Notes: a model not told the origin generated them from the letters alone. 64,000 bases of DNA from Akkermansia muciniphila (GCA_963611795.1 CAVDSZ010000009.1:11602-75601); one strand, 5' to 3'; positions 17,585-33,048 are shown, counted from the first letter of the stretch. Numbers and translations are program-made.

Positions 17585-18309
17585 TCATTGAAGGAATCAA
17601 TCAGTTTTCGTTTGGCGGTCGCCGTTCCTATGACGATATGGGTCTGATTATCACAGAACCCCCGGTTTTCACGTTCCCTGAACGGGATATTTCGTATATC
17701 GGAATTCCCGGAAAAAGCGGCGACCTGATCCGCGACAACGGAAGATACAAGAATATATCCGGAAGTTACAAAGTGGCAGTTGTGCGGGATGAATTCCTGC
17801 TGGAAACCATGATGACGGAAATCAGATCGTGGCTTGCCGGGAATATCGGGTATTCTGTATTGACAGACACCTACGATCCGCTTTATTACCGTATGGCACA
17901 GTTGGACGGGAAATTGAGTTTTACCGAGATTCTGCGGCAGATTGGGACAGGAACGGTGAAATTCAACTGCAAGCCCTACAAATACCGCATAGATGGTCGC
18001 CATGTGATAACGCTTGCGGGGGCCGGCGCAGTTTTCAACCCGGAACACGCCGAAAGCGCCCCGTACATCAAGATAACCGGAAGCGGAAATATCACGCTGA
18101 CAGTCAATCACGCTTCGTTCCCTTTTACGGATATTGACGGATATATTGAAATTGACAGCGACATCATGGCAGTGTACAAAGGAACGCTACTACAAAACGA
18201 AAAAGCTCACTTTACCGAATTTCCGAAATTCGGAGAGGGAGAAAACAACGTCAGCGTTCAAGGAAGCGTTGCCAAAATAGAAATTATTCCGAGGTGGTGC
18301 GCACTATGA
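17581..18309 (+). CDS. Distal tail protein (Dit, siphovirus tail family)
   Basis: 242 aa. The GTGA start overlaps the tape measure stop. Position is canonical, directly after the tape measure. Confidence 0.7.
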   Translation: MIIEGINQFSFGGRRSYDDMGLIITEPPVFTFPERDISYIGIPGKSGDLIRDNGRYKNISGSYKVAVVRDEFLLETMMTEIRSWLAGNIGYSVLTDTYDPLYYRMAQLDGKLSFTEILRQIGTGTVKFNCKPYKYRIDGRHVITLAGAGAVFNPEHAESAPYIKITGSGNITLTVNHASFPFTDIDGYIEIDSDIMAVYKGTLLQNEKAHFTEFPKFGEGENNVSVQGSVAKIEIIPRWCAL

Positions 18310-21300
18310 TTCCGATTTTGTACACGGCAAACGAAACTGATTTTTCGCACTGTGGAATCGGCGCACTTTCGGAAATGACTTCATGTACAGTTACGGAGGA
18401 ACGAAACGGCGCATTTGAATGCGAATTCAAATACCCTGTTGACGGAAAATTGTTCGCTGAAATACAGGAATCCCGTATTGTCAAGGCAAACCCGAACGAA
18501 ATGTCCGATCCACAGTTGTTCAGGATATACGCTTCATCAAAACCGATAAACGGCATTGTGACTTACCGAGCCGAACACATATCCTATGAATTAAGCGGCT
18601 ATCCTGTGGAAAGTGTTTCTGTTGAGAACGCCACGGCGCGCGCCGCCATGAATGCAATCCTGAACGCAACCTTGATTGCACACCGTTATACGGCACAAAG
18701 CGATATTGAATTACTGAAAAGTACAACGATTGACCGCAAATCCGCCCGTGCCGCATTGGGCGGCGTGGAAGGGTCTGTCCTGTCTCTTTGGGGTGGCGAG
18801 TTTGAATTTGATAACTTTACCGTAAAATTGCATAAGGCAAGAGGACGGAAAACCGGAATCAAAATTGCATACGGGAAAAACATTACCGACATCAAGCAGG
18901 AGGCAAGCGTCGCAGGCGTGTACACTGCGGTTTACCCTTATGCAAAATACACCACGCAGCCGACGGATGGACAGACCGAACCGGAGGAAATCACGGTTTC
19001 ACTGCCTGAAAAAATCCTGTATTCACAGAAAGCGTCAAAAGCCGCCGGGGAGCGGGTTTGTATCAAAGATTTTTCCGAGAGTTTCAACGGGGCAACAGAA
19101 ATCACGGTCGAACAGCTTCGCACAAAGGCTCAAAATTGGGTAGAAACAAGCGGCTTTGATGTGCCGTCGGTCAATATTACAGTTTCTTTTGAAAATCTGT
19201 GGCAAAGCCCTGAATACGAACAATACGCACTTTTGGAGCGGTGCGGGCTGTGCGATACGGTTTCCGTGGAATTTCCGGCACTGAATATTTCCACCACGGC
19301 AAAAATCATCAAGACAAAATATGATGTTTTGAGTGAAAAATATCTGCAAATTACGCTTGGCAGCGCGCGGGCGAACTTCGCTGACACAGTGAAAGACACA
19401 TCGGCGGCAATCGAGCAGACAAAGCAGGAAATCAAGCAATCATCCGCCAAAGTGGAAGTCGATTTCAAAAAAGCCATTGACGACGCAACAAAGGCGATCA
19501 CTGGGCAAAGCGGCGGCTATGTGGTTTTGAACCCTGCAAAGAATCCGCAGGAAATCCTGATTATGGATGCGCCGACCATTGCGGCGGCAAAGCGCGTTTG
19601 GCGTTGGAATAGCGGCGGTCTTGGCTATTCCAAAAACGGCTACAACGGGCCGTTTGAAACTGCGATCACACAGGACGGTGCAATTGTTGCTGATTTTATC
19701 ACAGTCGGACAAATTGCAACGGCGCGTCTTGACGTGCAAGACATCATACGGACAGGTGAAATCGCCGTACTTGGTGATGTTACTGTGGAAACGGAACGTG
19801 CCACAAAGGAAGAAGGTGCGCTGTCCTCCCGCATTACGGCAAATGCAACGGGAATCACCGCCGAGGTAAGCCGCGCGACCGACGCGGAAGGTGCGCTGTC
19901 GTCCCGCATTACCGCAAATGCAACGGAAATCACCGCCGAGGTAAACCGCGCAACCGACGCGGAAGGCACGCTGTCATCCCGCATTACTGCCAACGCAACG
20001 GAAATCACCGCCGAGGTAAGCCGTGCGACCGACGCAGAGGGTGCGCTGTCATCCCGCATTACGGCAAACGCAACGGAAATTGCCGCGAAAGTCAGTACGA
20101 CAGGCGGCGCGGCTTCGTCGTTCGCGTGGTCGCTGACCACATCCGGTTTTGTTCTGACATCCAACAATACCGAGGTTATGAAAGTAACTTCAAGCGGATT
20201 GAACATCACGGGGCGTATTACCTCCACGAGCGGAACGATCGGTGGCTGGATAATCTCAAGCACGGAAATATACAAAGGTTCTGTCGGAATCAATGCAAGC
20301 AATGAGCACACCAAAAATTCGCTTGTCACAACAGGCACATCACCCGTCCGCTTTTATGCCGGGAACGGCGACCGGATAAACGGGAAATTTGTTGTACTGG
20401 ATGATGGCTCTTTGTACGCTTCGGCGGCAAAGATTGAGGGAACGATCACGGCAAACAGCGGAAGTTTCAGCAACTGCACGATTGATGAAACCTGCACGAT
20501 CAAAGGGACATTGACGGCGGACACGATTTGCAACAATGACAAATCCATGCAGGCGGAGGGTTCTATAAATTTTGTCGGTTCGGGCAATACATCGTTGGCG
20601 CAGTATAATATGCGGATCGTTGACAAAAACAGTAGCATGATGAGAGCGTCCTGCTCAGTGTCGGATTCTTCCGGGCTTATGTCAGCGGCGCTGACCTGTA
20701 CATATAAATACACCCTTTCTGGAACGACCGCATACGGAACATGCGGGATTTCCGCAACAGGTGAACTTTGTTCCATTACAGGGCATTATATCGGAATTAC
20801 AGCCGACAAGAGCGGATCGGACTATATCAAGCTGGACGCGACCAGTGTTACGGTAACGGGAAGTTCAACATTTACCGGAAGCGCAACATTTCTTCAATCG
20901 AATTCTTCACAAGGGTTCTTTATTCGCCATAATTACACCGTACAACTGCCAGCAGGCGGAGGATATGCGTTTTTGCAGATGTACACCAAAACCAACCTTG
21001 CCGTTTCACATTACATGGATTATGACGCAGGGCGGTATATGGTGTATTCGTGGAACTACACAATCGGTATCGGTTCTTCAAGCGGTTCAAATCAGCTATA
21101 CGGGACGTGGTATTGTAACGGGTCAGTGATAAACAGTTCCGACCGGAACGCAAAAAACAGCATTGCAGACATTGACGAGAAATACGACACGTTGTTCGAC
21201 GGTTTGCGGGCAAGATTGTATAGGTATAACGACGGCACTTCCGGCAGGCTTCACAGCGGATTTGTGGCGCAGGAAGTGGAAGAAGCCATGCAAGCGGCAA

Positions 21301-21485
21301 ATGTCCCGACAAGCGATTTTGCGGCGTTCTGCGTGGATGGCGCAGGGACAGACAAAGAGCGGTGCGGGCTTCGCTACGAAGAATTTGTGTCGTTGAACAC
21401 ATGGCAAATTCAGAAACTGAAAGCACATTTGCGGGAGGTGGAAAACCGCCTTGCAATACTGGAAAAAACAGAAACAGGAGGATGA
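18306..21485 (+). CDS. Tail-associated / tail fibre protein (Tal-like) with a C-terminal S74 intramolecular chaperone auto-processing domain
   Basis: The start was moved to ATG 18306 (MIPILYTANETDFSHCGIG, typical of the phage minor structural / prophage tail endopeptidase N-terminus). The C-terminus SSDRNAKNSIADI...LYRYNDG...HSGFVAQEVEEAM...RYEEFVSLNTWQIQKL matches the Peptidase_S74 chaperone domain (about 21130-21485). Confidence 0.8.
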   Translation: MIPILYTANETDFSHCGIGALSEMTSCTVTEERNGAFECEFKYPVDGKLFAEIQESRIVKANPNEMSDPQLFRIYASSKPINGIVTYRAEHISYELSGYPVESVSVENATARAAMNAILNATLIAHRYTAQSDIELLKSTTIDRKSARAALGGVEGSVLSLWGGEFEFDNFTVKLHKARGRKTGIKIAYGKNITDIKQEASVAGVYTAVYPYAKYTTQPTDGQTEPEEITVSLPEKILYSQKASKAAGERVCIKDFSESFNGATEITVEQLRTKAQNWVETSGFDVPSVNITVSFENLWQSPEYEQYALLERCGLCDTVSVEFPALNISTTAKIIKTKYDVLSEKYLQITLGSARANFADTVKDTSAAIEQTKQEIKQSSAKVEVDFKKAIDDATKAITGQSGGYVVLNPAKNPQEILIMDAPTIAAAKRVWRWNSGGLGYSKNGYNGPFETAITQDGAIVADFITVGQIATARLDVQDIIRTGEIAVLGDVTVETERATKEEGALSSRITANATGITAEVSRATDAEGALSSRITANATEITAEVNRATDAEGTLSSRITANATEITAEVSRATDAEGALSSRITANATEIAAKVSTTGGAASSFAWSLTTSGFVLTSNNTEVMKVTSSGLNITGRITSTSGTIGGWIISSTEIYKGSVGINASNEHTKNSLVTTGTSPVRFYAGNGDRINGKFVVLDDGSLYASAAKIEGTITANSGSFSNCTIDETCTIKGTLTADTICNNDKSMQAEGSINFVGSGNTSLAQYNMRIVDKNSSMMRASCSVSDSSGLMSAALTCTYKYTLSGTTAYGTCGISATGELCSITGHYIGITADKSGSDYIKLDATSVTVTGSSTFTGSATFLQSNSSQGFFIRHNYTVQLPAGGGYAFLQMYTKTNLAVSHYMDYDAGRYMVYSWNYTIGIGSSSGSNQLYGTWYCNGSVINSSDRNAKNSIADIDEKYDTLFDGLRARLYRYNDGTSGRLHSGFVAQEVEEAMQAANVPTSDFAAFCVDGAGTDKERCGLRYEEFVSLNTWQIQKLKAHLREVENRLAILEKTETGG
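19812..20093 (+). repeat. 75-bp (25-aa) near-perfect tandem repeat, about 3.75 copies, in frame within Tal
   Basis: The unit EGALSSRITANATEITAEVSRATDA starts at 19812, 19887, 19962 and 20037. Only a few silent or conservative differences separate the copies. Confidence 0.9.
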
Positions 21486-21729: not shown

Positions 21730-23988
21730 ATGGAGTACATCAAGGAAATCTGCGCCGATTTTTCAGGCGAGGGACTGTTTGACTATATCACCGCAGTGCA
21801 AGGCGACAGTGCGCGCGGTGTCCGGATCAAAATTATTGCAAACAATCAGCGGTATATCCCTGAATCAGGGGCAAGCGCCGTTCTCCGGGCAAAGAAACCG
21901 GACGGAACATACATTCTGAACGATGGCGCAATCGAGGACGGCGGAACAATAAAGGCAATGTTCAGCGAACAGATGACCGCCGCTGTCGGAAACTGCCGCT
22001 GTGAACTGACGCTTTACGGCGCAAACGGCGGAACGCTTACAACCGTGAAATTCATCCTGAAGGTGTCCCCTGCGTCCCTTGCACCGGACATCGAAAGCAA
22101 AGACGAATTTCAATCGCTGGAAAATGCACTTACCGACGTGAAAAAATCAAGCGGCATTGCGCAGGCGGCGTTGGAAGCAGCAACGGAAGCGCTGGAAAAG
22201 ACGGGAGAAGTGGAGGCAGAAATCGCTTCCCACATTACGGCGGCAGAACAGGCAACCACTGCCGCAAACGCGGCAGCTGCCAATGCCAACGAAAAAGCGT
22301 CTGCCGCCAACACGGCGGCAGGAACTGCCAACACCGCCGCACAAAATGCGAACAAGAAGGCGGCAGCGGCAAACACTGCGGCGAATGCGGCAAATACCGC
22401 AGCGCAGAACGCAGGCGATAAAGCAACCGCCGCCGATACCGCCGCAGGAACGGCGAACACTGCGGCACAAAATGCAAACAGCAAAGCAAGTGCCGCCAAT
22501 ACCGCTGCAACCAGCGCAACGACCGCCGCAGAACGGGCAAACGCCGCAGCGGAGCAGGCGGAGGAAATCGTCAGGACGGCAGAAGGCATTATTACCCGCT
22601 ACGGCGTACACTTCGGCGGAGCGGCAAACACGGGCGAAACCGTTTCCCGCTTGTATAATGCTGTGGGACTTGTGGCAGGCGTGGGAACAGATACAGAAGC
22701 CCCGCAAAACGACTTTGACAACATCTTCCCATGGAATGCGCGCCGCCGCTGTTGCGGTTATTGGGACGAAAACGGAAACTTTGTTGTAAATGCCTACAAG
22801 GGTGAACCGGGCTATGCCGAGGACGGAACAAACGGTGAAGTATGGATAGAACATTCCCTGTTCTATTTCAAACACGAATACGGCGGGACTGATGAAACAA
22901 TCGTCATTTCTGCGACCAAACTTGCGGGATTTGAGCCTGCGCCGATCTTCCAAAAGAACGGCAACAAAGACGCCCCGTATCAAAAGGCATATACCCCGGC
23001 ATTTCCGATGGCAACCGTGGACAACAAACCGACTTCCCGCGCGGGTGTGTTCTCCGGTCTGTATTCGTTGAATTCGGCAATGACAGACGCAAGGAAGGCA
23101 GGCGCAAACTACACGACCACAACCGCCGCAGAGCAATACACGGAATGCCTGTATATGTGGGTGGAATTTGCTACACGCAATTTGCAAAGCGTAATGGTAG
23201 GCGCAACGGGTATGCCGTACACTGACGGCGGCACGGCGACCGTGGCGGAAACGGGCGTAAACCGCATTATTGTTTCAAATGCCGTTGCTGCAAAATATGT
23301 TGTCGGTCAGACAATCGGTATTGGCGCTTCGCTTGGTTCGACTGCGATTGCAAATAACCGCATTGTAACGGCAATCGAGACATACGACGACGCGAACAAA
23401 GCAATTTCTTTTGACGGCGCGGCGGTCAATATTGCCGTCGGCAATATCATTTTCACACTGGCATGGAAAAACGGTTCTTGTGCGTCCGTCATTGCTTCGA
23501 GCGGTTCACCCGTATCAAATACAAGCGGCAAATATAATTGCGTGTACCGTGGGAAAGAAACACCATATGGAAATTCCTTTGAATGGATTTCGGATATTCT
23601 TTTGAAACGAGAGGGAGCGGGGACGGAAGAAAGCCCCTACACCTACACACCGCAGTACCTGCCGGACGCAACAAAATACGCAAACGGTACAATCACGGAA
23701 GATTATGTGCCGATGAACTTCAAACTGCCGACCGCAGACGGATATGTAAAAAGGCTTGGAATTGACAGTCGTTTCCCGTGGGCGCGCCTGCCCTGCGAAA
23801 CCGGGGCCGGCTCTACCACGTATTACAGCGACTATTACTATTTTCCGCGCTATGCGACGTGCGCGGCGCGTGTCGGCGGCTACTGGTACACCGGGTCGCC
23901 CGCTGGCCCGTGCTACTGGTGCTGCGACACCGCCCCTTCGGGCACGAGTGTGGACTTTCGTGCGCGCCTTTCTTACCACCGGAATTAA
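21730..23988 (+). CDS. Receptor-binding / tail fibre protein with a BppU-like N-terminus and a C-terminal DGR variable region (DGR target protein)
   Basis: The N-terminus MEYIKEICADFSGEGLFDYITAVQGDSARGVRIKI resembles the baseplate upper protein (BppU) N-domain. An Ala/Asn-rich heptad stalk follows. The last ~40 aa (VGGYWYTGSPAGPCYWCCDTAPSGTSVDFRARL) are the VR copy of the downstream template repeat and are typical of C-type-lectin-fold DGR targets. Confidence 0.85.
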   Translation: MEYIKEICADFSGEGLFDYITAVQGDSARGVRIKIIANNQRYIPESGASAVLRAKKPDGTYILNDGAIEDGGTIKAMFSEQMTAAVGNCRCELTLYGANGGTLTTVKFILKVSPASLAPDIESKDEFQSLENALTDVKKSSGIAQAALEAATEALEKTGEVEAEIASHITAAEQATTAANAAAANANEKASAANTAAGTANTAAQNANKKAAAANTAANAANTAAQNAGDKATAADTAAGTANTAAQNANSKASAANTAATSATTAAERANAAAEQAEEIVRTAEGIITRYGVHFGGAANTGETVSRLYNAVGLVAGVGTDTEAPQNDFDNIFPWNARRRCCGYWDENGNFVVNAYKGEPGYAEDGTNGEVWIEHSLFYFKHEYGGTDETIVISATKLAGFEPAPIFQKNGNKDAPYQKAYTPAFPMATVDNKPTSRAGVFSGLYSLNSAMTDARKAGANYTTTTAAEQYTECLYMWVEFATRNLQSVMVGATGMPYTDGGTATVAETGVNRIIVSNAVAAKYVVGQTIGIGASLGSTAIANNRIVTAIETYDDANKAISFDGAAVNIAVGNIIFTLAWKNGSCASVIASSGSPVSNTSGKYNCVYRGKETPYGNSFEWISDILLKREGAGTEESPYTYTPQYLPDATKYANGTITEDYVPMNFKLPTADGYVKRLGIDSRFPWARLPCETGAGSTTYYSDYYYFPRYATCAARVGGYWYTGSPAGPCYWCCDTAPSGTSVDFRARLSYHRN
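22237..22566 (+). repeat. Ala/Asn/Thr-rich heptad repeats (xANTAAx) encoding a predicted coiled-coil stalk in the RBP
   Basis: AANTAAG TANTAAQ NANKKAA AANTAAN AANTAAQ NAGDKAT AADTAAG TANTAAQ NANSKAS AANTAAT has 7-residue periodicity. The low-complexity GC-rich DNA produces several long spurious ORFs on other frames and on the opposite strand. Confidence 0.8.
23858..23975 (+). repeat. DGR variable repeat (VR), at the 3' end of the RBP gene
   Basis: A gap-free 118-bp alignment to 24037-24154 has 105 identities and 13 mismatches. Every mismatch lies opposite an adenine in the TR copy. Confidence 0.92.
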
Positions 23989-23996
23989 CGGGGGTT

Positions 23997-24015
23997 TGGG
24001 GGCGGTCAGCCCCCA
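23997..24015 (+). promoter_or_regulatory. GC-rich hairpin 3' of VR (candidate DGR target-recognition hairpin/cruciform)
   Basis: TGGGGGC (23997-24003), loop GGTCA, GCCCCCA (24009-24015): a perfect 7-bp stem. It lies 22 nt after the end of VR/TR homology. No U-run follows, so it is not a canonical terminator. Confidence 0.6.
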
Positions 24016-24036
24016 TTGCATAGGGATATAATGTGC

Positions 24037-24154
24037 CGTGCGCGGCGCGTGTCGGCGGCAACTGGAACAACGGGTCGAACGCTGGCCCGTGCTACTGGAA
24101 CTGCAACAACGCCCCTTCGGACACGAGTGTGAACTATCGTGCGCGCCATTCTTA
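24037..24154 (+). repeat. DGR template repeat (TR)
   Basis: Non-coding copy of VR. It contains 23 adenines including 8 AAC codons in the VR reading frame. The apparent ORF 24033..24272 is simply this repeat read in frame. Confidence 0.92.
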
Positions 24155-24288
24155 TAGCAACACAACCAAAACGGGAAAACCTTTGCACATTATATTCCTT
24201 GCCGCTTGGCAAAAATTGTTGCTACGGCGGGGTTTAGTAAGCGTTCGTCGCCCAACGACCCCGAAACTATAAGAAAGGAACTGTAAAA

Positions 24289-25551
24289 ATGAAATCTTTT
24301 CATATAGACCGTAATATGAAAGACAAGGTTAAAATACGCCTTGCAATCGAAAAAGTATGTAAAAGCAAAAAGAAGCGAAACGGACGACCGACGAAGAAAT
24401 ACCGTCAGGCGCAGAAAATTCTTGCAAATATTGACCGCTACACGGATTTGATTCATACGATTGTCTGCGAAACCGAGGAAAAAGAACGGGCAATCAAAAG
24501 CGGGACATACCGTGACGGTGATTTTCCGAATGCTTTTGTTCCACACATTTCCGGTTCATTTACCCGCAAGTGTGAAAACGGGAAGGTTCGCGTCATTACA
24601 AGCGTCCCGGTCTTTCCGGATCAGATCATTCACCAGCTTGTCATCAAGTCTGCGGAAAGCGTTTTTATGCGCGGGATGTACCGCTTTTCCTGCGGGTCAA
24701 TTCCAAAGCGAGGGGTTCACAAGGGAAAGCAATACTTGGAACGCTATATCGGCAGAAACAGGCGCAGCAGTGCAATCAAATATGCGGCGCAGTTAGACAT
24801 CCGGAAATGCTATCCGCATATACGGCACGATGTTTTGAAGGAAATGTTGCGTCGAAAATTCCGTGGCAGTCTGTTCCTTTGCTTCTGCTTCTCTATTATC
24901 GACAGTTGCAGCGAAAAGGACGCACCCGGCGTTGGGCTTCCAATCGGCTTCTATACTTCGCAGTGGTTTTGCAATTTTCTTCTGACACCGCTTGATACAT
25001 ATATCAAGCAGGAATTAAAGGTCAAATGTCATGTGCGGTATGTGGATGACATGACGATGTTTTCCAACAACAAGAAGAAACTTCATCGGATTGTTGATTG
25101 TATTATAGAAAAAGCCGCTTCCATGGGGCTTCAAATCAAAGACAACTGGCAAGTGTTCCGGTTCGATCACATTGTGGGATTCCGGGTAAACCCAAAGACG
25201 GGAAAGCAAGAAGAAATCCACAAAGGGCGTGCAATCGACACTTTGGGATTCCGGTTCTTCCGGAACAAAACGATATTGAGAAAGAGGAATGCGCTTTCCA
25301 TTCGTCGCTGTGCGGCACGTCTTGCCAAAGCAAAGAGAATCACGCCACACCGGGCGCGTTCGTTCATGTCAAAAATCGGAGCATTGAAGCACTGCAATTC
25401 CCGGAACTTTTGGCGGAAATACGTCAAGCCGCTTGTAAAAATCAAAAAGTTAAAGGAGATCATCAGAAATGAGGACAGAAAGCAACATCAAACCCGAAGT
25501 GCTGGCGGTGGAAGAATGCGCACAGGGGCTTGCAGAAATTGTTTTGCGTGA
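24289..25551 (+). CDS. DGR-type reverse transcriptase
   Basis: QLDIRKCYPHIRHD (Asp-containing motif A-like), LPIGFYTSQWFCNF (the [I/L/V]GxxxSQ motif characteristic of DGR RTs, nt 24943-24963) and RYVDDMTMF (YxDD catalytic motif, nt 25039-25050). It lies 134 nt downstream of TR. Confidence 0.9.
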   Translation: MKSFHIDRNMKDKVKIRLAIEKVCKSKKKRNGRPTKKYRQAQKILANIDRYTDLIHTIVCETEEKERAIKSGTYRDGDFPNAFVPHISGSFTRKCENGKVRVITSVPVFPDQIIHQLVIKSAESVFMRGMYRFSCGSIPKRGVHKGKQYLERYIGRNRRSSAIKYAAQLDIRKCYPHIRHDVLKEMLRRKFRGSLFLCFCFSIIDSCSEKDAPGVGLPIGFYTSQWFCNFLLTPLDTYIKQELKVKCHVRYVDDMTMFSNNKKKLHRIVDCIIEKAASMGLQIKDNWQVFRFDHIVGFRVNPKTGKQEEIHKGRAIDTLGFRFFRNKTILRKRNALSIRRCAARLAKAKRITPHRARSFMSKIGALKHCNSRNFWRKYVKPLVKIKKLKEIIRNEDRKQHQTRSAGGGRMRTGACRNCFA

Positions 25552-25951
25552 GAATATCACGGAAACACAAAAAGAGGAAGAAACAGTCTATTTGTACGAC
25601 GAATACAGACTGACCGTTCCGACACGTGAAAATCTTGCAAGCGCTGTAAAACAGAATCTTGCCGCTTGGCTGGCACGGGCAAAGGACAGTGAAAAAAGCC
25701 GCCTTGCGGCGGCGATCCGCGAAAAGCGGGACAAACTCTTGAAAGACAGTGACGCAAGAATGTGCCTTGACCGCATGGGCCTTTCTGCACCGAGCGGAAC
25801 GGGCTTCACGGCGTGGCTGGACTTTCTGAAAACGCTTGCAAAAGAGGTCAGCGGCGAATGGGCGAAATATCGGAAAGCGCTGCGCGATCTTCCTGAACAG
25901 CCGGGATTCCCGTACGATGTCACATTTCCAACGCCGCCGGAGGACGAATAA
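25469..25951 (+). CDS. Tail fibre assembly / chaperone-like protein
   Basis: The C-terminal EWAKYRKALRDLPEQPGFPYDVTFPTPPE matches the conserved end of Caudovirales tail-fibre assembly proteins. An AAGGAG RBS lies 8 nt upstream. It overlaps the RT 3' end by 83 nt. Confidence 0.55.
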   Translation: MRTESNIKPEVLAVEECAQGLAEIVLRENITETQKEEETVYLYDEYRLTVPTRENLASAVKQNLAAWLARAKDSEKSRLAAAIREKRDKLLKDSDARMCLDRMGLSAPSGTGFTAWLDFLKTLAKEVSGEWAKYRKALRDLPEQPGFPYDVTFPTPPEDE

Positions 25952-26269
25952 ATGATGATTCAAATTTTCCTCCAATGGTTGATACCGTTTGCCTGCGGCG
26001 CTTTGGTATCGGTTTGCACCGCCCTTTTCACCATGCGCAGGAAAGAGCGGAAGCGCGAAAAAGCCGTTGAAAACGGTGTGCAGTGCCTGCTACGTGCGGA
26101 GATTATACGGCAATATGAAAAATGGGTTGATCGCGGATATTGCCCGATATATGCGGAAGAAGCGTTGCGGATTGGTTATGCCGCATATCATGAATTGGGC
26201 GGGAACGATGTTGCGACGGAACTTTACAAAAAGGTCATGGCACTGCCGACCGATGAAAAAACGAAATAA
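25952..26269 (+). CDS. Membrane-anchored protein in the lysis module (one N-terminal TM), function unknown
   Basis: 105 aa. The hydrophobic N-terminus is IFLQWLIPFACGALVSVCTALF, followed by a basic stretch. It is adjacent to the holin. Confidence 0.5.
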   Translation: MMIQIFLQWLIPFACGALVSVCTALFTMRRKERKREKAVENGVQCLLRAEIIRQYEKWVDRGYCPIYAEEALRIGYAAYHELGGNDVATELYKKVMALPTDEKTK

Positions 26270-26317
26270 TATTCCTGCAGGATATTATGATAAAAAACAA
26301 AGAGAGGTACAAACAAA

Positions 26318-26704
26318 ATGGTAAACTATGCAATTATCCCGGTGATTGTCGTTATCTGCTATGTAGTGATTTCGGCAATTAAGACAACCAACATCAAAAG
26401 CAAGTGGTTTCCGCTGATCTCATGCGCACTTGGCGCGGTGCTTGCGGTTGCCATGTTTTACATTGTCCCGGATTTTGTCGGCGCTGCAACGCTTACAGCG
26501 GCGATCATTTCGGGTGCGGTGTCAGGGCTTGCGGCGACCGGAACCAATCAGATTTTCAAACAGTTGATGAAAGCGGCGGAGAGCGGCGAGGACATCACGA
26601 AAATTGAATTGCCCGGCTTTTCCGAATCCGGAGAGGGGCAGAAAGAGCGCACCCCCGTACATAACGGAGAAAACGCTGGCAACGATACCGGGACGGAAAC
26701 GTAA
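26318..26704 (+). CDS. Putative holin (three hydrophobic segments)
   Basis: 128 aa. The TM-like segments are AIIPVIVVICYVVISAI, FPLISCALGAVLAVAMFYIV and AATLTAAIISGAVSGLAATG, followed by a charged C-terminal tail. It is the last gene of the late operon. Confidence 0.6.
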   Translation: MVNYAIIPVIVVICYVVISAIKTTNIKSKWFPLISCALGAVLAVAMFYIVPDFVGAATLTAAIISGAVSGLAATGTNQIFKQLMKAAESGEDITKIELPGFSESGEGQKERTPVHNGENAGNDTGTET

Positions 26705-26714
26705 TAAACAAAAA

Positions 26715-26745
26715 ACAGCGGAGGCGTATAGCTTCCGCTGTTTTT
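26715..26745. terminator. Bidirectional rho-independent terminator
   Basis: An 11-bp stem ACAGCGGAGGC/GCTTCCGCTGT (one G-U pair) is flanked by an A-run upstream and TTTTT downstream. It lies between the convergent holin and HIRAN genes. Confidence 0.8.
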
Positions 26746-26746
26746 A

Positions 26747-27313
26747 TCATGCTTTATTCAGGCATAAAGTGACTTCACACCCGAAGTTCAGCGGCTGACC
26801 GTTGTCATCTGTACCGCCGCCGTAAATATCGGTGTGGTAAACGCTTCTGATTCTGTCCCAATTGTTGAGGACGAACGCAAGCTGTTCTTTCGGAACATTC
26901 CCCACTTGCTCGCCGTTTGCATATACACCAACGGCGGGTTCGCCGTTATAATCGTATTTTTCAATTGTCCATTCCACAAAATCAAACGGTTCATCGCCCC
27001 ACTTGATTTTCCGAAGGATTGCCTGCCGTGTCTTGCGTCCGTTGTTGAATGTCACCCCCGCAAGCCGGAATTTGAAATAATCGTTGTTTTGCTTTGCCGC
27101 TTCCGCTTTTTTATGAATATCGGCTGACTTTTCAGCGATCACGACGGGCTTTCTTCCGAGGAACAGAAGAATACCGCCGACGGCAATCAATGCGACACTA
27201 CCGAACGCAAGTGCGGCTTTGTCATTTGTATCAGATAACAGCCCAAAAAGCCCGATTACACCGACTATGCACAGAATCAGACCGATAATAAATTTTTTGC
27301 TTTTCTTTTTCAT
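26747..27313 (-). CDS. Membrane-anchored HIRAN-domain protein (two N-terminal TMs)
   Basis: ORF 26747..27355. The start was moved to ATG at 27313 (MKKKSKKF) after a GGGGG RBS. The TMs are FIIGLILCIVGVIGLFGLL and LAFGSVALIAVGGILLFLG. FKFRLAGVTFNNGRKTRQAIL...EPAVGVYANGEQVGNVPKEQLAFVL matches the HIRAN pattern. Confidence 0.7.
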   Translation of the reverse strand: MKKKSKKFIIGLILCIVGVIGLFGLLSDTNDKAALAFGSVALIAVGGILLFLGRKPVVIAEKSADIHKKAEAAKQNNDYFKFRLAGVTFNNGRKTRQAILRKIKWGDEPFDFVEWTIEKYDYNGEPAVGVYANGEQVGNVPKEQLAFVLNNWDRIRSVYHTDIYGGGTDDNGQPLNFGCEVTLCLNKA

Positions 27314-27364
27314 AATACCCCCGAAATTGAAAACAATTCTGTAGTTTATTCGCATTTCTTATCA

Positions 27365-27424
27365 TTAACACAATTATAGACCGAAAGTGTGTTAAAGTCA
27401 AGAGTGATTCCGAACTTTAACACA
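27365..27424. promoter_or_regulatory. Three operator-like half-sites TTAACACA / TGTGTTAA / TTAACACA in the divergent HIRAN-XRE intergenic region
   Basis: TTAACACA at 27365-27372, its inverted copy TGTGTTAA at 27388-27395, and TTAACACA at 27417-27424. Confidence 0.55.
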
Positions 27425-27460
27425 AAATTTCCAAAATCCGATGGAGGAATACATAGAAAA

Positions 27461-27706
27461 ATGAAAATTTACGACTGGAACGGCAAGAAGAATATTTGCG
27501 GCGACCGCGTGCATGAAGCACGGCAACGGTTACGGATGACACAATCCGACTTGGCGGCACAGCTACAAGTTGCAGGAATCATCATGGAACGTGACAGCGT
27601 GAGCCGAATTGAAATCGGAACGCGCTTTGTTGCCGACTATGAATTGTTGATACTTGCAAAATGTCTGAAAGTTTCCCCTGCGTGGCTCTTGGGGATAGAA
27701 CCATAA
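27461..27706 (+). CDS. XRE-family (Cro/CI-type) HTH transcriptional regulator
   Basis: ORF 27389..27706. The start was moved to ATG 27461 after a GGAGGA RBS. RLRMTQSDLAAQLQVAGIIMERDSVSRIEIGTRFV is a classic HTH_3 pattern. Confidence 0.85.
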   Translation: MKIYDWNGKKNICGDRVHEARQRLRMTQSDLAAQLQVAGIIMERDSVSRIEIGTRFVADYELLILAKCLKVSPAWLLGIEP

Positions 27707-28479: not shown

Positions 28480-29650
28480 TTCAAGCCCGTTTCTTTGTAG
28501 GAAGCGGGCTTTTCTTTTGCGGAGGGAATCATGCGCAGATTCAAACAATTGACAAAAACCGACCGATTGAGAATAGAAGCCTTTTTGCGGTGCGGTCTGA
28601 CGGCAAAAGAAATTGCCGTCAAAATCGGTGTACATATCAGCACGATTTACAGAGAAGTAAAGCGCGGACAATATGAACATCTGAATTCGGACTGGACGCG
28701 GGAATGGAGATACAGCCCGGATATTGCGGAGGAAAAATATCAACAGAATCTGCGTGCGAAAGGGCCGGCACTGAAAATCGGCAATGACCGCAAGTTGGCG
28801 GAGCATATCGAAAAGAAGATCATTCATGATAAATATTCCCCTGCCGCTGTCCTCGGAGAAATCAGGCGGGACAACATAGAATTCACGGTTACAATCAGTA
28901 TTCCCACTTTATATAGTTACATAGACAAAGGGATTTTTCTGCATCTGACAAATAAAAATTTGCCGGACAAATGCCGGAAAAAGAGAAAGTACAGAAAAAC
29001 AAAAGTTAAACGCCCGCCGCGCGGCGAAAGTATCGAGAACCGCCCTCCCGAAGTAGATACACGGGAAACCTTTGGATTTTGGGAAATGGACACCGTAAAA
29101 GGCAAAAAGAAAAAGAGTAAAAACAATATGCTTGTGCTGACGGAGCGGAAAACACGGCAAGAAATACAAATTAAAATACCGGACGGCACTATGGCAAGCG
29201 TCGTCCGGGCATTGGATATGCTGGAACGGAAATACGGCGACTTGTTCCCGCTGATTTTCAAGTCAATAACGGTTGATAACGGGTCGGAATTCTATGACGA
29301 AGCGGGCATGACACGATCCTGCTTACGAGAGGGAGCGCGGACAAAGTTTTATTTTTGCCATCCGTATTCCTCCTATGAGAGAGGAAGTAACGAAAAGCAA
29401 AACCGCATGATCCGCCGTTTTATACCGAAAGGAACAGACTTTGACGACATGACCGACGACAAAGTGGAGGAAATTACTGCATGGCTAAACAATTACCCGC
29501 GCGGAATTTTTAACTATTACACATCACAATATTTCTTTGACAAAGAAATTCAAGCGATTTTAACCAGTTCACAAAATATTAACAAATAAAATTCGCATTT
29601 ATCTCTTGACAAGAGCGAAATTTTTCTTTTTTCGGGCAGTCGGGTGATTT
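28480..29650 (+). mobile_element. IS30-family insertion sequence (ends not resolved)
   Basis: A single IS30-type transposase gene, noticeably AT-rich compared with its flanks. The terminal inverted repeats could not be identified confidently by eye. Confidence 0.6.
28531..29589 (+). CDS. IS30-family transposase (DDE)
   Basis: N-terminal HTH (LTKTDRLRIEAFLRCGLTAKEIAVKIGVHISTIYREVKRG). The catalytic core has FWEMDTV (D), ITVDNGSEF (D) and ERGSNEKQNRMIRRFIPKG (E), typical of IS30. Confidence 0.9.
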   Translation: MRRFKQLTKTDRLRIEAFLRCGLTAKEIAVKIGVHISTIYREVKRGQYEHLNSDWTREWRYSPDIAEEKYQQNLRAKGPALKIGNDRKLAEHIEKKIIHDKYSPAAVLGEIRRDNIEFTVTISIPTLYSYIDKGIFLHLTNKNLPDKCRKKRKYRKTKVKRPPRGESIENRPPEVDTRETFGFWEMDTVKGKKKKSKNNMLVLTERKTRQEIQIKIPDGTMASVVRALDMLERKYGDLFPLIFKSITVDNGSEFYDEAGMTRSCLREGARTKFYFCHPYSSYERGSNEKQNRMIRRFIPKGTDFDDMTDDKVEEITAWLNNYPRGIFNYYTSQYFFDKEIQAILTSSQNINK

Positions 29651-30476: not shown

Positions 30477-30659
30477 ATGAAGGAAGAAAACAAGTGCGGT
30501 TGCAAACACATCAAAGGCATCGTTTGCAGTGTGGAGAAATGCGTTTATCACGACAAGGCGAATGAATGCACGGCATCGGAGATTGCCGTCGGACCGACGT
30601 CCGCGTGCTGCTCGTCCGAGACGCTGTGCGTGACGTTCCGTCCCAAGACCGAGGGTTAA
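30477..30659 (+). CDS. DUF1540 domain protein
   Basis: The start was moved to ATG 30477 after a GGAGG RBS. CSVEKCVYHDKANECTASEIAVGP...CCSSETLCVTF is the Cys-rich DUF1540 pattern. Confidence 0.7.
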   Translation: MKEENKCGCKHIKGIVCSVEKCVYHDKANECTASEIAVGPTSACCSSETLCVTFRPKTEG

Positions 30660-32157: not shown

Positions 32158-33048
32158 TTACTTGTTTTGAGACTGTAACAGGTACGTACCGAGTCGTTTG
32201 TGTGCGTTCCCGTAAAAGAAGCGTTGCGTGAAGTCTTCGCCGTATCTTGCCGTCATGACAGGAAGCAGAACTTTTGTCAAGTCGCCGGCGTCATGCAGGG
32301 AAGCGGCGAGGGTGTCCGTACCGTCGAAATCGCCGCCGACGGCGAGTGCATCCCCGATTCCGAGCGCGACCCCGTGGTCAATATGGGCAAAAAGCGCGGA
32401 GACGTCCGGCGCCCCGCCGGTGTGGGCAGGGACGAGAGACAGTCCGATGACCCCGCCGCTCCGGGCGATTGTCAGGGCTTCCGCGTCCGTAAGATTTCGT
32501 GAATGCGGCGTGACGGCGAAAAAATTGGAATGTGTGGCGAGGAGGGGCAACTTTCGTGTGCGGGCAATCGTTGCCATATCGTCAAAACTCCGCCGCGAGG
32601 CGTGAGAGACGTCGAGGAGCATTCCGAGTGTCATAGCGTCAGCACAGAGTTTCCGTCCGTCAGGCGTCAGCCCTGCCTCGGTATCGTGCGCCCCGCCGAA
32701 TCGGTTGCGACCGCTCCAGAAAGGTGTCAGAATCCGTATTCCGCGGCGCCGTAGTCTCGCCAGTCGCCCCCGCGTCTGTACAGAGAGGATTCGCGCGTCC
32801 TCAACGGAAAAGATGACATGACAGGGCGTATTTTTCAGTTTTTCCGTCGCGTCCTCATACATGGAAAGGCAGGATTGCCATGCGGCTTCGTCACTCTCCC
32901 GTTTGTACGCCCAGAAGGCAAAACACAAGACGGTTCGGTTATAGGGACGCAGAGTGTCCGCACTGACGTGCAACGCGGGATCGGAAAACGATCGTTCCTC
33001 GCGGTACATACGGTAAGGGGTATCGGCGTGCAGAATCCATAAGTTCAT
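32158..33048 (-). CDS. Membrane dipeptidase family (M19)-like protein
   Basis: LDVSHASRRSFDD, LLATHSNFFAVTPHSRNLTD and GGVIGLSL resemble renal-dipeptidase-family motifs. Confidence 0.6.
   Translation of the reverse strand: MNLWILHADTPYRMYREERSFSDPALHVSADTLRPYNRTVLCFAFWAYKRESDEAAWQSCLSMYEDATEKLKNTPCHVIFSVEDARILSVQTRGRLARLRRRGIRILTPFWSGRNRFGGAHDTEAGLTPDGRKLCADAMTLGMLLDVSHASRRSFDDMATIARTRKLPLLATHSNFFAVTPHSRNLTDAEALTIARSGGVIGLSLVPAHTGGAPDVSALFAHIDHGVALGIGDALAVGGDFDGTDTLAASLHDAGDLTKVLLPVMTARYGEDFTQRFFYGNAHKRLGTYLLQSQNK

What the first reader, a model, noticed from the sequence alone, without database searches (positions are those of the whole stretch)
21730..25551. Complete diversity-generating retroelement (DGR) targeting the prophage receptor-binding protein
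All core DGR parts are present and colinear:
- a target gene whose last ~40 codons form the VR;
- a GC hairpin just 3' of VR;
- a non-coding TR 61 bp after VR;
- a 134-nt spacer;
- an RT with the DGR-diagnostic IGFYTSQ ([I/L/V]GxxxSQ) motif and a YVDD catalytic motif.

The target is the distal tail protein, with a BppU-like N-domain, a coiled-coil stalk and a Gly/Trp/Cys-rich C-terminal tip typical of C-type-lectin-fold DGR targets. This makes it a tropism-switching system analogous to Bordetella phage BPP-1 Mtd, but in a Clostridia-type siphovirus prophage with a minimal accessory-free layout. It is the most notable system in the window.
Basis: partly seen in the sequence, partly recalled or inferred. 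Interest (0 to 1): 0.9.

Follow-up and report, generated by a model that had tools for sequence, protein, structure and literature searches.

The report
Active DGR diversifying phage tail fibre
A prophage in a gut Clostridiales-type bacterium carries a complete and evidently active diversity-generating retroelement that rewrites the tip of its receptor-binding tail protein; this kind of system is well known, but here its template RNA has a conserved fold (Rfam RT-18) that had no assigned function.

Summary
VR (23859-23975) and TR (24038-24154) are an ungapped 117-nt repeat with 13 differences, all at TR adenines and all at codon positions 1 or 2.

Six near-identical phages from other assemblies keep the TR (99%) and flanks (95-100%), but their VRs are only 82-87% identical. 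In that set, 98 of 100 VR/TR substitutions sit at TR adenines.

The RT's best solved relative is the Bordetella phage BPP-1 DGR RT, and it carries IGFYTSQ and YVDD. No Avd or other accessory gene was found. This layout is already described (architecture A of Wu et al. 2018).

New detail: the "134-nt spacer" is not inert.
- It holds Rfam RT-18 RNA (24200-24276).
- A 15-bp helix (24022-24036 with 24185-24199) clamps the TR and shows strong covariation across 31 loci.
- The arrangement mirrors the BPP-1 "cPRT Stop" module but lacks the Avd-binding stem-loop.

The C-type-lectin fold of the target tip could not be verified.

Verdict: a real, active DGR and a new member of a known kind. Interest is moderate to low, raised slightly by the RNA finding.

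The parts
21730..23988 (+). DGR target gene: receptor-binding / distal tail protein (752 aa). BppU_N domain covers aa 19-138 (nt 21784-22143). Ala-rich repeat stalk covers about aa 140-285. The C-terminal domain carries the VR.
   Evidence: ORF list. Pfam BppU_N E 4e-11. PHROG 17147 and 5302 'tail protein'. 534 homologues of the C-terminal part.
23859..23975 (+). Variable region (VR), codons 711-749 of the target. The mutagenised span is 23859-23957. The invariant GC-rich 3' end is 23958-23975 (TCGTGCGCGCCTTTCTTA), an IMH-like segment with fixed T23969 opposite TR A24148.
23990..24014 (+). Conserved element just after the stop codon: GGGGG-TTT-GGGGG followed by a hairpin. The stem is 23998-24003 / 24009-24014 (6 bp) and the loop is GGTCA. 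It is the presumed target-recognition hairpin.
   Evidence: Sequence. The G-run/G-run/loop/C-run pattern occurs in 40 of 54 unique related loci, and G-run/loop/C-run in 45 of 54. The closing pair covaries (C-G, T-A, A-T) and loops are 4-5 nt.
24022..24036 (+). Upstream strand of the TR-clamping RNA helix (AGGGAUAUAAUGUGC). It ends 1 nt before the TR.
   Evidence: RNAalifold predicted the helix unprompted.
24038..24154 (+). Template region (TR), non-coding. It has 21 mutable adenines, all at codon position 1 or 2, and 8 AAC codons. No stop codon is reachable. About 2.6e12 peptide variants are possible.
   Evidence: TR is 99.1% identical in five relatives, whereas VR is 82-87%.
24155..24184 (+). 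A-rich 30-nt linker between the TR and the helix. It has no stem-loop comparable to the BPP-1 Avd-binding element. By analogy it is the expected location of the priming nucleotide, but that site has not been identified.
   Evidence: The test for a conserved TR:linker duplex was negative.
24185..24199 (+). Downstream strand of the TR-clamping helix (GCACAUUAUAUUCCU). It forms 15 bp with 24022-24036, including a conserved G.U pair that fixes the strand as the + strand RNA.
24200..24276 (+). Rfam RT-18 RNA (RF03021). P1 hairpin UGCC-GCUU-GGCA is at 24200-24211. The invariant AAAU is at 24213-24216. A long stem with a UAGUA (sarcin-ricin-type) internal loop spans 24228-24263. The 3' tail runs into the RT ribosome-binding site.
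   Evidence: 52.5 bits against a gathering score of 41.3. The same family lies between TR and RT in 46 of 53 related loci scanned. The sarcin-ricin assignment for RF03021 comes from PMC13085918.
24289..25551 (+). DGR reverse transcriptase (420 aa). IGFYTSQ is at nt 24943-24963 and YVDD at nt 25039-25050. The 3' end overlaps the next gene.
25469..25951 (+). Tail-fibre assembly chaperone gene (context, not a DGR part). The TR-RT cassette sits between the fibre gene and its chaperone.
   Evidence: Pfam Phage_tail_APC E 3e-13. PHROG tail fibre assembly. The order is the same in L003 and L004.

Best explanation
This is an active, Avd-less diversity-generating retroelement of a temperate siphovirus-like prophage. 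It diversifies 13 codons at the C-terminal tip of the phage's receptor-binding tail protein.

**Shown by computation**
- The TR is an invariant master copy.
- The VR differs from it only at adenines.
- VRs differ between otherwise near-identical phages.
- A VR follows its own TR at non-adenine positions.
- The RT is of the DGR type.
- The TR is clamped by a conserved, covarying 15-bp RNA helix. This is followed by a 4-bp tetraloop hairpin, an invariant AAAU and the RT-18 stem-loop.
- A conserved G-rich hairpin follows the VR.

**Inferred mechanism**
1. A + strand transcript covers about 24020-24290. It probably arises by read-through of the tail operon, since no promoter was predicted.
2. The transcript folds so that the helix, P1 and the A-run form a module equivalent to the BPP-1 'cPRT Stop'. 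The RT-18 stem-loop binds the RT.
3. The RT primes within or near the 30-nt linker 3' of the TR (site unknown).
4. It copies the TR 3' to 5', misincorporating opposite adenines, and stops at the helix. The helix end coincides with the 5' end of VR/TR homology.
5. The cDNA replaces the VR. It is directed there by the invariant GC-rich VR end and the downstream hairpin, both absent from the TR side.
6. The result is up to about 2.6e12 tail-tip variants and hence altered host-receptor specificity.
For: - **VR/TR pattern:** 13 of 13 mismatches are at TR-A and at codon positions 1/2; P about 6.6e-10.
- **Population comparison:** 98 of 160 A cells differ against 2 of 640 non-A cells across seven loci. 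VR is 82-87% identical while the target flank is 95-98%, TR 99.1%, spacer 98.5-100% and RT 97-99%.
- **VR follows its own TR:** the L004 TR carries 4 non-A substitutions that its own VR shares.
- **RT class:** best PDB hit is the 328-aa RT of 8ub7, E 1.4e-12. BLASTP to Brt gives E 1e-17 with aligned IGxxxSQ and YxDD. PHROG 1423 gives E 4e-72.
- **Conserved layout:** 67 of 94 related loci show an A-biased VR/TR pair in the same VR-TR-RT order.
- **RNA family:** RT-18 scores above gathering in the window and in 46 of 53 relatives.
- **Helix:** alifold predicted it unprompted. 93.5% of cells are paired against 72.9% in shuffles and 31-48% when slid. There are 131 double-sided changes against 37.5 expected. 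The covariation score is 0.611 against 0.213, with 0 of 500 shuffles reaching it.
- **BPP-1 parallel:** an upstream:Sp duplex, then a short tetraloop hairpin, then A-minor adenosines, then an RT-binding stem (Handa et al., bioRxiv 10.1101/2023.10.23.563531).
- **VR-3' hairpin:** conserved in 45 of 54 unique loci.
Against: - No experiment or read-level data were available. Activity is inferred from differences between assemblies.
- The priming site is unknown, and a test for a conserved TR-3':linker duplex gave mean z = 0.03.
- No promoter was predicted for the DGR RNA.
- The target tip could not be shown to be a C-type lectin fold.
- Two related VRs (L001/L008 and L003) carry in-frame 3- and 6-nt deletions. 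Two non-A substitutions were also seen (L007 G>T, L003 T>C), which simple A-mutagenesis does not produce.
- Absence of Avd rests on weak-sensitivity searches for a poorly conserved protein, and only within this 64-kb window.
Confidence: 0.93

Rival explanations
1. Relic DGR. The cassette was once active, but the VR/TR differences are historical and the element no longer homes.
For: The window shows only one snapshot. Some related VRs carry in-frame deletions and rare non-A changes, as a decaying VR might.
Against: - The RT ORF is intact with its catalytic motifs and is 97-99% conserved.
- TR, spacer RNA and hairpin are more conserved than the coding flanks, even in the 85%-identical relative L004.
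- Phages whose flanks differ by 1-5% have VRs differing by 13-18%, almost only at A sites. This implies repeated recent homing.
Confidence: 0.05
2. The RT belongs to another prokaryotic RT class (retron, group II intron, Abi/DRT defence RT), and the nearby repeat is a coincidental duplication of the gene's 3' end.
For: NCBIfam and PADLOC list weak hits to Drt3a, group II and retron RT models. This is expected for any RT palm domain.
Against: - All those hits are far below family cut-offs (56 bits against 200-600 required).
- The best solved relative is the RT of 8ub7 (taken to be BPP-1 bRT), not a group II RT.
- No intron RNA domains or retron msr/msd were found. Rfam finds only RT-18.
- Adenine-only mismatches recur in 67 related loci.
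Confidence: 0.01
3. The conserved helix and RT-18 are real RNA structures, but they serve to regulate RT expression (translational control or transcript stability) rather than to scaffold and stop cDNA synthesis.
For: The RT-18 3' tail runs into the RT ribosome-binding site. No priming duplex was detected. The function is assigned only by analogy with BPP-1.
Against: - The helix brackets the TR exactly. Its end lies 1 nt from the 5' limit of VR/TR homology, which a purely translational element has no reason to do.
- The order helix, then tetraloop hairpin, then invariant adenosines, then long stem with internal loops reproduces the BPP-1 RNP architecture element by element.
- RF03022 (BPP-1) and RF03021 both contain sarcin-ricin-type loops.
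Confidence: 0.15

Closest known systems
Bordetella phage BPP-1 DGR (mtd-avd-TR-brt; Rfam RF03022 Phage_DGR RNA)
   Same: - Phage tail receptor-binding protein as the target.
- VR in the last ~40 codons, with an AAC-rich TR.
- Adenine-only changes.
- Invariant GC-rich VR end plus a downstream GC hairpin.
- Related RT (24% identity, E 1e-17, shared IGxxxSQ/YxDD).
- DGR RNA in which a duplex between sequences 5' and 3' of the TR is followed by a short tetraloop hairpin, unpaired adenosines and a long RT-binding stem.
- The VR peptide motif aligns to Mtd 337-377.
   Different: - No avd gene and no Avd-binding stem-loop in the RNA. The TR-to-helix linker is 30 nt, against 58 nt in BPP-1.
- The RNA belongs to a different Rfam family. 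RF03021 matches here and RF03022 does not.
- The helix is 15 bp against 11 bp in BPP-1. P1 has 4 bp and an NCUU loop, against 2 bp and UNCG in BPP-1.
- The upstream helix strand is intergenic rather than inside avd.
- The target has a BppU_N anchor and an Ala-rich stalk instead of the Mtd architecture.
- The host is a Gram-positive-type Clostridiales bacterium.
Accessory-less DGRs: 'Architecture A1' and the RT 'Lineage 3' that lacks avd, in Wu et al. 2018 (PMC5758913)
   Same: A TR-RT core with an adjacent upstream target and no accessory gene. Wu et al. report this for 29% of 372 DGRs and infer an Avd-independent mechanism.
   Different: I could not place this RT on their tree, so membership of Lineage 3 specifically is untested. 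That survey did not analyse RNA structure ('RNA structure' and 'hairpin' each occur 0 times in its main text).
Rfam RT-18 RNA (RF03021; Weinberg et al. 2017, PMC5737381)
   Same: The window's 24200-24276 is a full-length member (52.5 bits against a gathering score of 41.3).
   Different: The family was described only as 'near RT genes'. Its authors assigned RT-10 to the BPP-1 DGR and merely speculated that other RT motifs serve DGRs. Here RT-18 always lies between a TR and a DGR RT, and it is preceded by a TR-clamping helix that is not part of the Rfam model.
Cultured phages with the nearest RTs: Butyrivibrio phages Arawn and Idris (36%), Lactobacillus phage LBR48 (33%), Faecalibacterium phage FP_Epona (30%)
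   Same: - The RT lies downstream of tail genes.
- Arawn has a VR/TR pair with 9 of 9 mismatches at A, plus the G5-N-G5-loop-C5 element.
- LBR48 has RT-18 just upstream of its RT.
   Different: All share under 40% RT identity. No cultured phage in the 50,697-record collection reaches 60%. The window's phage is known only from metagenome assemblies and from the MAG Clostridiales bacterium UBA7573.

Membership tests
Diversity-generating retroelement (DGR) | TR/VR repeat pair whose differences are confined to adenines of the TR | tested here: met
   13 of 13 in the window. 98 of 100 substitutions across seven close relatives.
Diversity-generating retroelement (DGR) | Reverse transcriptase of the DGR clade ([I/L/V]GxxxSQ in motif 4, YxDD; closer to known DGR RTs than to other RT classes) | tested here: met
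   IGFYTSQ and YVDD are present. The best PDB hit is the 328-aa RT of 8ub7 at E 1.4e-12, against 1e-6 for a group II RT. BLASTP to Brt gives E 1e-17. Other RT family models fall below their cut-offs. No full phylogeny against a curated RT set was run.
Diversity-generating retroelement (DGR) | VR lies in a protein-coding target, with mutable positions at codon positions 1/2 and no stop codons reachable | tested here: met
   21 mutable A, all at codon position 1 or 2. There are 8 AAC codons and no stop is reachable.
Diversity-generating retroelement (DGR) | Ongoing diversification: VR varies and TR does not among closely related genomes | tested here: met
   VR 82-87% against TR 99.1% and flanks 95-100%. 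The L004 VR follows its own TR at non-A sites. The comparison is between assemblies, not within one population.
Diversity-generating retroelement (DGR) | Directional target-recognition elements: IMH at the VR 3' end differing from IMH* in the TR, plus a GC-rich inverted repeat downstream of the VR | tested here: met
   - The invariant GC-rich end is 23958-23975, with a fixed T/A difference.
- VR and TR diverge after 23975/24154.
- The hairpin 23998-24014 is present after the VR only, and is conserved in 45 of 54 loci.
- Function was not tested.
Diversity-generating retroelement (DGR) | Variable residues displayed on a C-type lectin (or Ig) fold | tested here: inconclusive
   - AF2 models had mean pLDDT of 47 and 49, with the VR part below 50.
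- Foldseek found nothing.
- There was no Pfam CLec, FGE or DUF1566 hit in 66 family members.
- hhalign aligns only the VR motif to Mtd (probability 45%, E 2e-4).
BPP-1-type DGR (avd-dependent, architecture B) | avd accessory gene adjacent to the TR | tested here: not met
   - There is no ORF between VR and TR (62 nt).
- Pfam and NCBIfam show nothing Avd- or HRDC-like in 27 phage ORFs.
- phmmer of BPP-1 Avd against 705 window ORFs gave a best E of 0.17.
- The same gap without an ORF occurs in related loci.
Rfam RF03022 Phage_DGR RNA (BPP-1 type) | Covariance-model score at or above gathering (50 bits) | tested here: not met
   No hit in the window, even at E <= 1 in 23700-24400. BPP-1 itself scores 104.7 bits.
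Rfam RF03021 RT-18 RNA | Covariance-model score at or above gathering (41.3 bits) | tested here: met
   52.5 bits over the full model length, at 24200-24276.
Retron / group II intron / defence RT (DRT, Abi) | Score above the curated family cut-off, plus the associated RNA or effector | tested here: not met
   Best NCBIfam scores are 56 bits against cut-offs of 200-600. PADLOC gives only generic RT hits of 69 bits or less. Rfam finds no intron or retron RNA.

The most novel reading that the evidence does not exclude
RT-18 RNA, together with the TR-clamping helix, is the dedicated DGR RNA scaffold of a large Avd-independent phage DGR lineage. It keeps the BPP-1 'stop duplex / tetraloop hairpin / A-minor adenosines / RT-binding stem' core but has lost, or never had, the Avd-binding stem-loop. 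In this reading the RT alone, guided by the RNA, primes and terminates cDNA synthesis. That would give a minimal two-component (RNA + RT) adenine mutator and would assign a function to an orphan Rfam family.
Probability: 0.55. Interest if true: 0.5.

Novelty: new member of a known kind. Interest (0 to 1): 0.35.

Why it matters
As a DGR on a phage receptor-binding protein it is ordinary. Such cassettes are catalogued by the thousand in gut viromes, and the accessory-free layout is already a named architecture.

Two points give it some value.
- It is a clean natural example of ongoing diversification. Near-identical prophages from different samples each carry a different VR over an unchanged TR.
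- It links the orphan Rfam family RT-18 to DGR function. It also shows that an Avd-less lineage keeps the RNA 'stop' architecture recently solved for BPP-1, while lacking the Avd-binding hairpin.

This makes the open question of how Avd-independent DGRs prime and terminate cDNA synthesis directly testable with a small RNA + RT system. Compact RT + RNA mutators are also of practical interest for targeted in vivo mutagenesis tools.

Tried and rejected
- **Exact-protein look-up of the window RT:** not on record.
- **Exact TR/VR pattern in viral contigs:** 0 hits. Relatives were then found through the RT protein instead.
- **Own promoter for the DGR RNA:** none predicted on the + strand in 23600-25700. 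The perfect TATAAT at 24027-24032 turned out to be one strand of the covarying helix, not a -10 box.
- **Hairpin as an intrinsic terminator:** rejected, because no T-run follows it.
- **Template:primer duplex between the TR 3' end and the linker, as in BPP-1:** no signal (mean z 0.03 over 30 loci).
- **C-type lectin fold of the tip:**
  - Two AlphaFold jobs gave pLDDT 47.1 and 48.7.
  - Foldseek against PDB gave a best E of 4.6.
  - phmmer and hmmsearch against PDB gave only coiled-coil noise.
  - Pfam scans of 66 family members gave no lectin family.
- **Avd:** phmmer with BPP-1 Avd found nothing.
- **Rfam Clostridiales-2:** it matched over the VR-3' hairpin at only 19 bits against 58.6 required. 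It was not found at gathering in 53 related loci, so it is treated as unproven.
- **Additional VRs (remote targets) in the window:** none.

Full report
**1. Observation**

- ORF 21730-23988 encodes a 752-aa protein with a Pfam BppU_N domain at residues 19-138 (E 4e-11).
- Its last codons contain a 117-nt segment, 23859-23975. This recurs ungapped at 24038-24154, at offset 179.
- The two copies differ at 13 positions. At every one the downstream copy has A (13 of its 23 adenines). Every one falls on codon position 1 or 2 of the target frame.
- If mismatches fell at random along the repeat, 13 of 13 at A has probability about 6.6e-10.
- A degenerate search with N at the A positions finds only these two copies in 64 kb, with none expected in shuffles.
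  - The VR-TR gap is 62 nt.
  - The TR-RT distance is 134 nt.
  - The hairpin is GGGGGC-GGTCA-GCCCCC at 23998-24014.
  - The RT ORF is 24289-25551, with IGFYTSQ at nt 24943-24963 and YVDD at nt 25039-25050.

**2. RT identity**

- Pfam RVT_1 gives E 5e-16 and PHROG 1423 'reverse transcriptase' gives E 4e-72.
- Against all PDB sequences, the best match is the 328-aa reverse transcriptase of entries 8ub7-8ube (E 1.4e-12). By its length and by its match to Brt, I take this to be BPP-1 bRT. It ranks ahead of the group II intron RT GsI-IIC (1e-6).
- I fetched BPP-1 (AY029185, locus L095). Direct BLASTP of the window RT against Brt gives 24% identity over about 300 residues, E 1e-17. GLPIGFYTSQ aligns to GIPIGSLTSQ, and YVDD aligns to YMDD.
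- NCBIfam models for Drt3a, group II, retron, AbiA and others score at most 56 bits against cut-offs of 200-600.
- PADLOC gives only generic RT hits of 69 bits or less.
- Rfam finds no intron or retron RNA.
- The refutation condition 'clusters with group II, retron or Abi RTs' is therefore not met. A full curated phylogeny was not run.

**3. Population test**

RT homologues led to near-identical prophages in other assemblies:
- L001: Clostridiales bacterium UBA7573 MAG, RT 99%.
- L003 and L004.
- L007, L008 and L009.

An alignment of the seven TRs and seven VRs gives the following:
- Six TRs are identical, apart from one A/G site in the window's copy.
- L004's TR has four non-A substitutions, and its own VR shares them.
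- Over all seven VR/TR pairs, 98 of 160 TR-adenine cells differ, against 2 of 640 non-adenine cells.

Identity of the window to the five closest relatives:

| Segment | Identity |
|---|---|
| Target gene just upstream of VR | 95-98% |
| VR-TR intergenic stretch | 98-100% |
| TR | 99.1% |
| Spacer | 98.5-100% |
| RT | 97-99% |
| VR | 82-87% |

It compares assemblies rather than reads within one sample.

One window mismatch (TR A24148 / VR T23969) is T in all seven VRs. It is best read as a fixed IMH/IMH* difference, so the mutagenised span is 23859-23957.

The TR design is classical. It has 21 mutable adenines, none at a third codon position, and eight AAC codons. No stop codon is reachable, and about 2.6e12 peptides are possible.

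**4. The wider family**

- A profile of 16 RT homologues (A2) found 379 relatives in IMG/VR, of which 80 were fetched.
- A script found an adenine-biased repeat pair (at least 80% of mismatches at TR-A) in 67 of 94 loci.
- The order is always target-VR, then 50-230 nt, then TR, then about 140 nt, then RT, all on one strand. L069 and L070 have a longer VR-TR gap of 895 nt.
- Most of the remaining loci lack upstream sequence.
- The nearest cultured phages share under 40% RT identity: Butyrivibrio phages Arawn and Idris, Lactobacillus phage LBR48 and Faecalibacterium phage Epona. Arawn has a 9 of 9 adenine VR/TR pair.

**5. The 'spacer' is a structured RNA**

- Rfam places RT-18 RNA (RF03021) at 24200-24276, at 52.5 bits against a gathering score of 41.3.
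- The same family lies directly 5' of the RT in 46 of 53 related loci scanned, and also in phage LBR48.
- Its authors described RT-1 to RT-19 only as motifs near RT genes. They assigned RT-10 to the BPP-1 DGR and speculated that others might serve DGRs (PMC5737381).
- RT-10 is now Rfam 'Phage_DGR' (RF03022). It matches BPP-1 at 104.7 bits but does not match the window.
- Full-text searches found no paper linking RT-18 to DGRs.

**6. A helix that clamps the TR**

The flanks of the TR looked complementary, with both strands changing together between loci. I aligned 31 non-redundant loci from 40 nt upstream of the TR to the RT start (A3).

RNAalifold, with no guidance, predicted only two elements:
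- a long-range helix joining the sequence just 5' of the TR to a sequence about 30 nt 3' of it;
- the 4-bp P1 hairpin that begins RT-18.

Counting pairs for the 15-bp helix plus P1 gave the following:

| Measure | Observed | Control |
|---|---|---|
| Cells paired | 93.5% | 72.9% shuffled; 31-48% slid by 1-3 columns |
| Cells with changes on both sides | 131 | 37.5 expected |
| Covariation score | 0.611 | 0.213 (0 of 500 shuffles reach it) |
| Pairs with compensatory changes | 16 of 19 | - |

- In the window the helix is 24022-24036 (AGGGAUAUAAUGUGC) with 24185-24199 (GCACAUUAUAUUCCU).
- A G.U pair is conserved in 28 of 30 sequences. It would be a C-A mismatch on the other strand, so the structure belongs to the + strand transcript.
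- The 'TATAAT' at 24027-24032 is therefore a helix strand, not a promoter.
- The helix ends 1 nt before the 5' limit of VR/TR homology.

**7. Comparison with the solved BPP-1 RNP**

Handa et al. (bioRxiv 10.1101/2023.10.23.563531) describe these elements in the BPP-1 DGR RNA:
- an 11-bp duplex between the sequence upstream of the TR and Sp 59-70;
- immediately after it, a 2-bp UNCG hairpin;
- then adenosines making A-minor contacts to G:C pairs of the duplex (together, the 'cPRT Stop');
- then a single-stranded 'thumb ring';
- then a long bRT-binding stem with internal loops.

cDNA synthesis ends just before the duplex. Upstream in Sp lie an Avd-binding stem-loop (Sp 3-33) and the primer strand (Sp 47-56).

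The window family has the corresponding series:
- a 15-bp duplex;
- immediately after it, P1 (4 bp, NCUU loop; stem covaries with 100% of cells paired);
- then an invariant AAAU (24213-24216), next to near-invariant G:C pairs at the P1-proximal end of the helix;
- then the RT-18 stem with a UAGUA internal loop.

An independent survey scores the RT-18 loop as a strong sarcin-ricin motif and also flags a loop in RF03022 (PMC13085918).

The Avd-binding stem-loop is missing here. The TR-to-helix linker is only 30 nt and A-rich, against 58 nt in BPP-1. This matches the absence of avd. Handa et al. surveyed RNA elements only in DGRs that have Avd.

The functional reading (stop module plus RT-binding scaffold) is inference by analogy.

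I looked for a conserved primer:template duplex between the end of the linker and the TR 3' end. I found none (mean z 0.03), so the priming site is unknown.

**8. Target-recognition side**

- Directly after the stop codon lies GGGGG-TTT-GGGGG-CGGTCAG-CCCCC.
- The G-run/G-run/loop/C-run pattern occurs in 40 of 54 unique related loci, even though their VRs differ. G-run/loop/C-run occurs in 45 of 54.
- The sixth stem pair covaries (C-G, T-A, A-T). Loops are 4-5 nt and include GAAA.
- No T-run follows, so it is not an intrinsic terminator.
- It is absent after the TR.
- It corresponds to the GC-rich inverted repeat downstream of IMH in BPP-1 (Wu et al. 2018 introduction; Guo et al. 2011, PMC3240598, listed and not read).
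- The role of the conserved first G-run is unexplained.

**9. Accessory genes and context**

- There is no ORF between VR and TR.
- Pfam, NCBIfam and PADLOC scans of 27 phage ORFs show nothing Avd-, HRDC- or MutS-like.
- phmmer with BPP-1 Avd against all 705 ORFs of at least 50 aa gives nothing below E 0.17. Avd is poorly conserved, so this is weak evidence. However, the layout is constant across the family.
- It matches 'Architecture A' of Wu et al. 2018 (29% of 372 DGRs), for which those authors infer Avd-independent homing.
- The cassette lies in a siphovirus-like late operon in this order:
  - TerS, TerL and portal;
  - protease, major capsid protein, connector and HK97 gp10-like protein;
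  - tape measure, Dit and Tal;
  - the target, TR-RT, tail-fibre assembly chaperone and holin.
- An IS30-like transposase (28531-29589) and bacterial genes (threonine synthase, M19 dipeptidase) follow.
- Related contigs reach 89-139 kb, so this is an integrated prophage.

**10. The target tip**

The claim of a C-type lectin fold could not be verified.
- No PDB sequence match.
- Two AlphaFold2 models with mean pLDDT 47.1 and 48.7, with the VR segment below 50.
- Foldseek found nothing.
- No Pfam lectin, FGE or DUF1566 hit in any of 66 family members.

Supporting hints only:
- hhalign aligns the VR segment to Mtd 337-377 (probability 45%, E 2e-4). The shared pattern is GGxW...G...PS...GAR.
- The family shows a 'YRGxExxxGNxWxx' motif upstream. 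From my own knowledge, this resembles the GNVWEW signature of FGE/CLec domains.
- Wu et al. note that some CLec VR classes escape sequence detection.

**11. Verdict**

It is a new member of a known kind. Phage DGRs on tail proteins, including accessory-free ones, are well described.

The added finding is that RT-18, together with a TR-clamping helix, forms the DGR RNA of this Avd-less lineage. It parallels the BPP-1 stop module while lacking the Avd-binding hairpin. This is a modest, testable advance, so I set interest at 0.35.

Noticed in passing
L001 about 5590 (and the identical L008 VR); L003 about 3830; alignment A1 columns 37-39 and 82-87: Two related VRs carry in-frame deletions relative to their own TR: 3 nt (one AAC codon) in L001/L008, and 6 nt (AACAAC) in L003. 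Two non-adenine changes were also seen (L007 G>T, L003 T>C). Plain adenine mutagenesis does not produce these. They may reflect slippage at AAC repeats during cDNA synthesis or integration.
   Followed up: partly
window 23990-23997 (first GGGGG-TTT, before the hairpin): A second G5 run, 3 nt upstream of the hairpin's G5 arm, is conserved in 40 of 54 unique related loci. It could pair alternatively with the single C5 run. Its role is unexplained.
   Followed up: partly
window 23982-24062: There is a weak match (19 bits; gathering score 58.6) to Rfam Clostridiales-2 RNA. That family's consensus (GGGGG-U-G..GGGG-loop-CCCC ... GUCGAAGGGAAC) resembles the VR-3' hairpin plus the start of a TR. Clostridiales-2 might therefore be the VR-TR intergenic element of another DGR lineage. 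It was not found at gathering in 53 related loci.
   Followed up: partly
window 19797-20095 (inside the Tal gene, 18294-21485): There are tandem 75-nt repeats encoding about 25-aa units (…EGALSSRITANATEITAEVSRATDA…). The length of the repeat tract, as seen in self-BLAST, differs between the window and relatives L001, L007, L008 and L009.
   Followed up: no
window 22240-22540 (target gene stalk): The stalk contains diverged Ala/Asn-rich 63-nt periodic repeats. Homologous targets come in 661-, 752- and 767-aa versions, which suggests stalk-length variation.
   Followed up: no
window 26747-27355 (-): A 202-aa ORF lies on the opposite strand, between the holin and an HTH gene at the prophage end. 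It has an N-terminal membrane segment and a weak TIR-like ThsB match (PADLOC E 2.5e-4). It may be a prophage-borne defence moron. It is conserved in L003.
   Followed up: no
window 28531-29589 (+): An IS30-like transposase (HTH_38 + rve) lies at the apparent right edge of the prophage, just before bacterial genes (threonine synthase 30656-32146, M19 dipeptidase 32158-33048).
   Followed up: no
window 25400-27700: None of the ORFs scanned next to the holin (26318-26704) has a recognisable endolysin domain. The 105-aa ORF 25952-26269 and the 202-aa ORF 26747-27355 have no Pfam hit.
   Followed up: partly
window 25469-25551: The RT ORF overlaps the following tail-fibre chaperone ORF by 83 nt as listed. 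Gene calls in relatives start the chaperone later, giving a 44-nt overlap. The TR-RT cassette thus sits between a fibre gene and its chaperone.
   Followed up: partly
window 24120 (TR) and 23941 (VR): The window's TR has G where five close relatives have A, a rare TR polymorphism that removes one mutable site. The window's VR also has G there.
   Followed up: yes
L029 7030-7376 (-): A tmRNA gene lies about 3 kb downstream of the RT in one related viral contig. This suggests that prophage is integrated next to ssrA.
   Followed up: no
window 2592-4316 (+): A phage-encoded C-5 cytosine DNA methylase (574 aa) lies in the early region.
   Followed up: no
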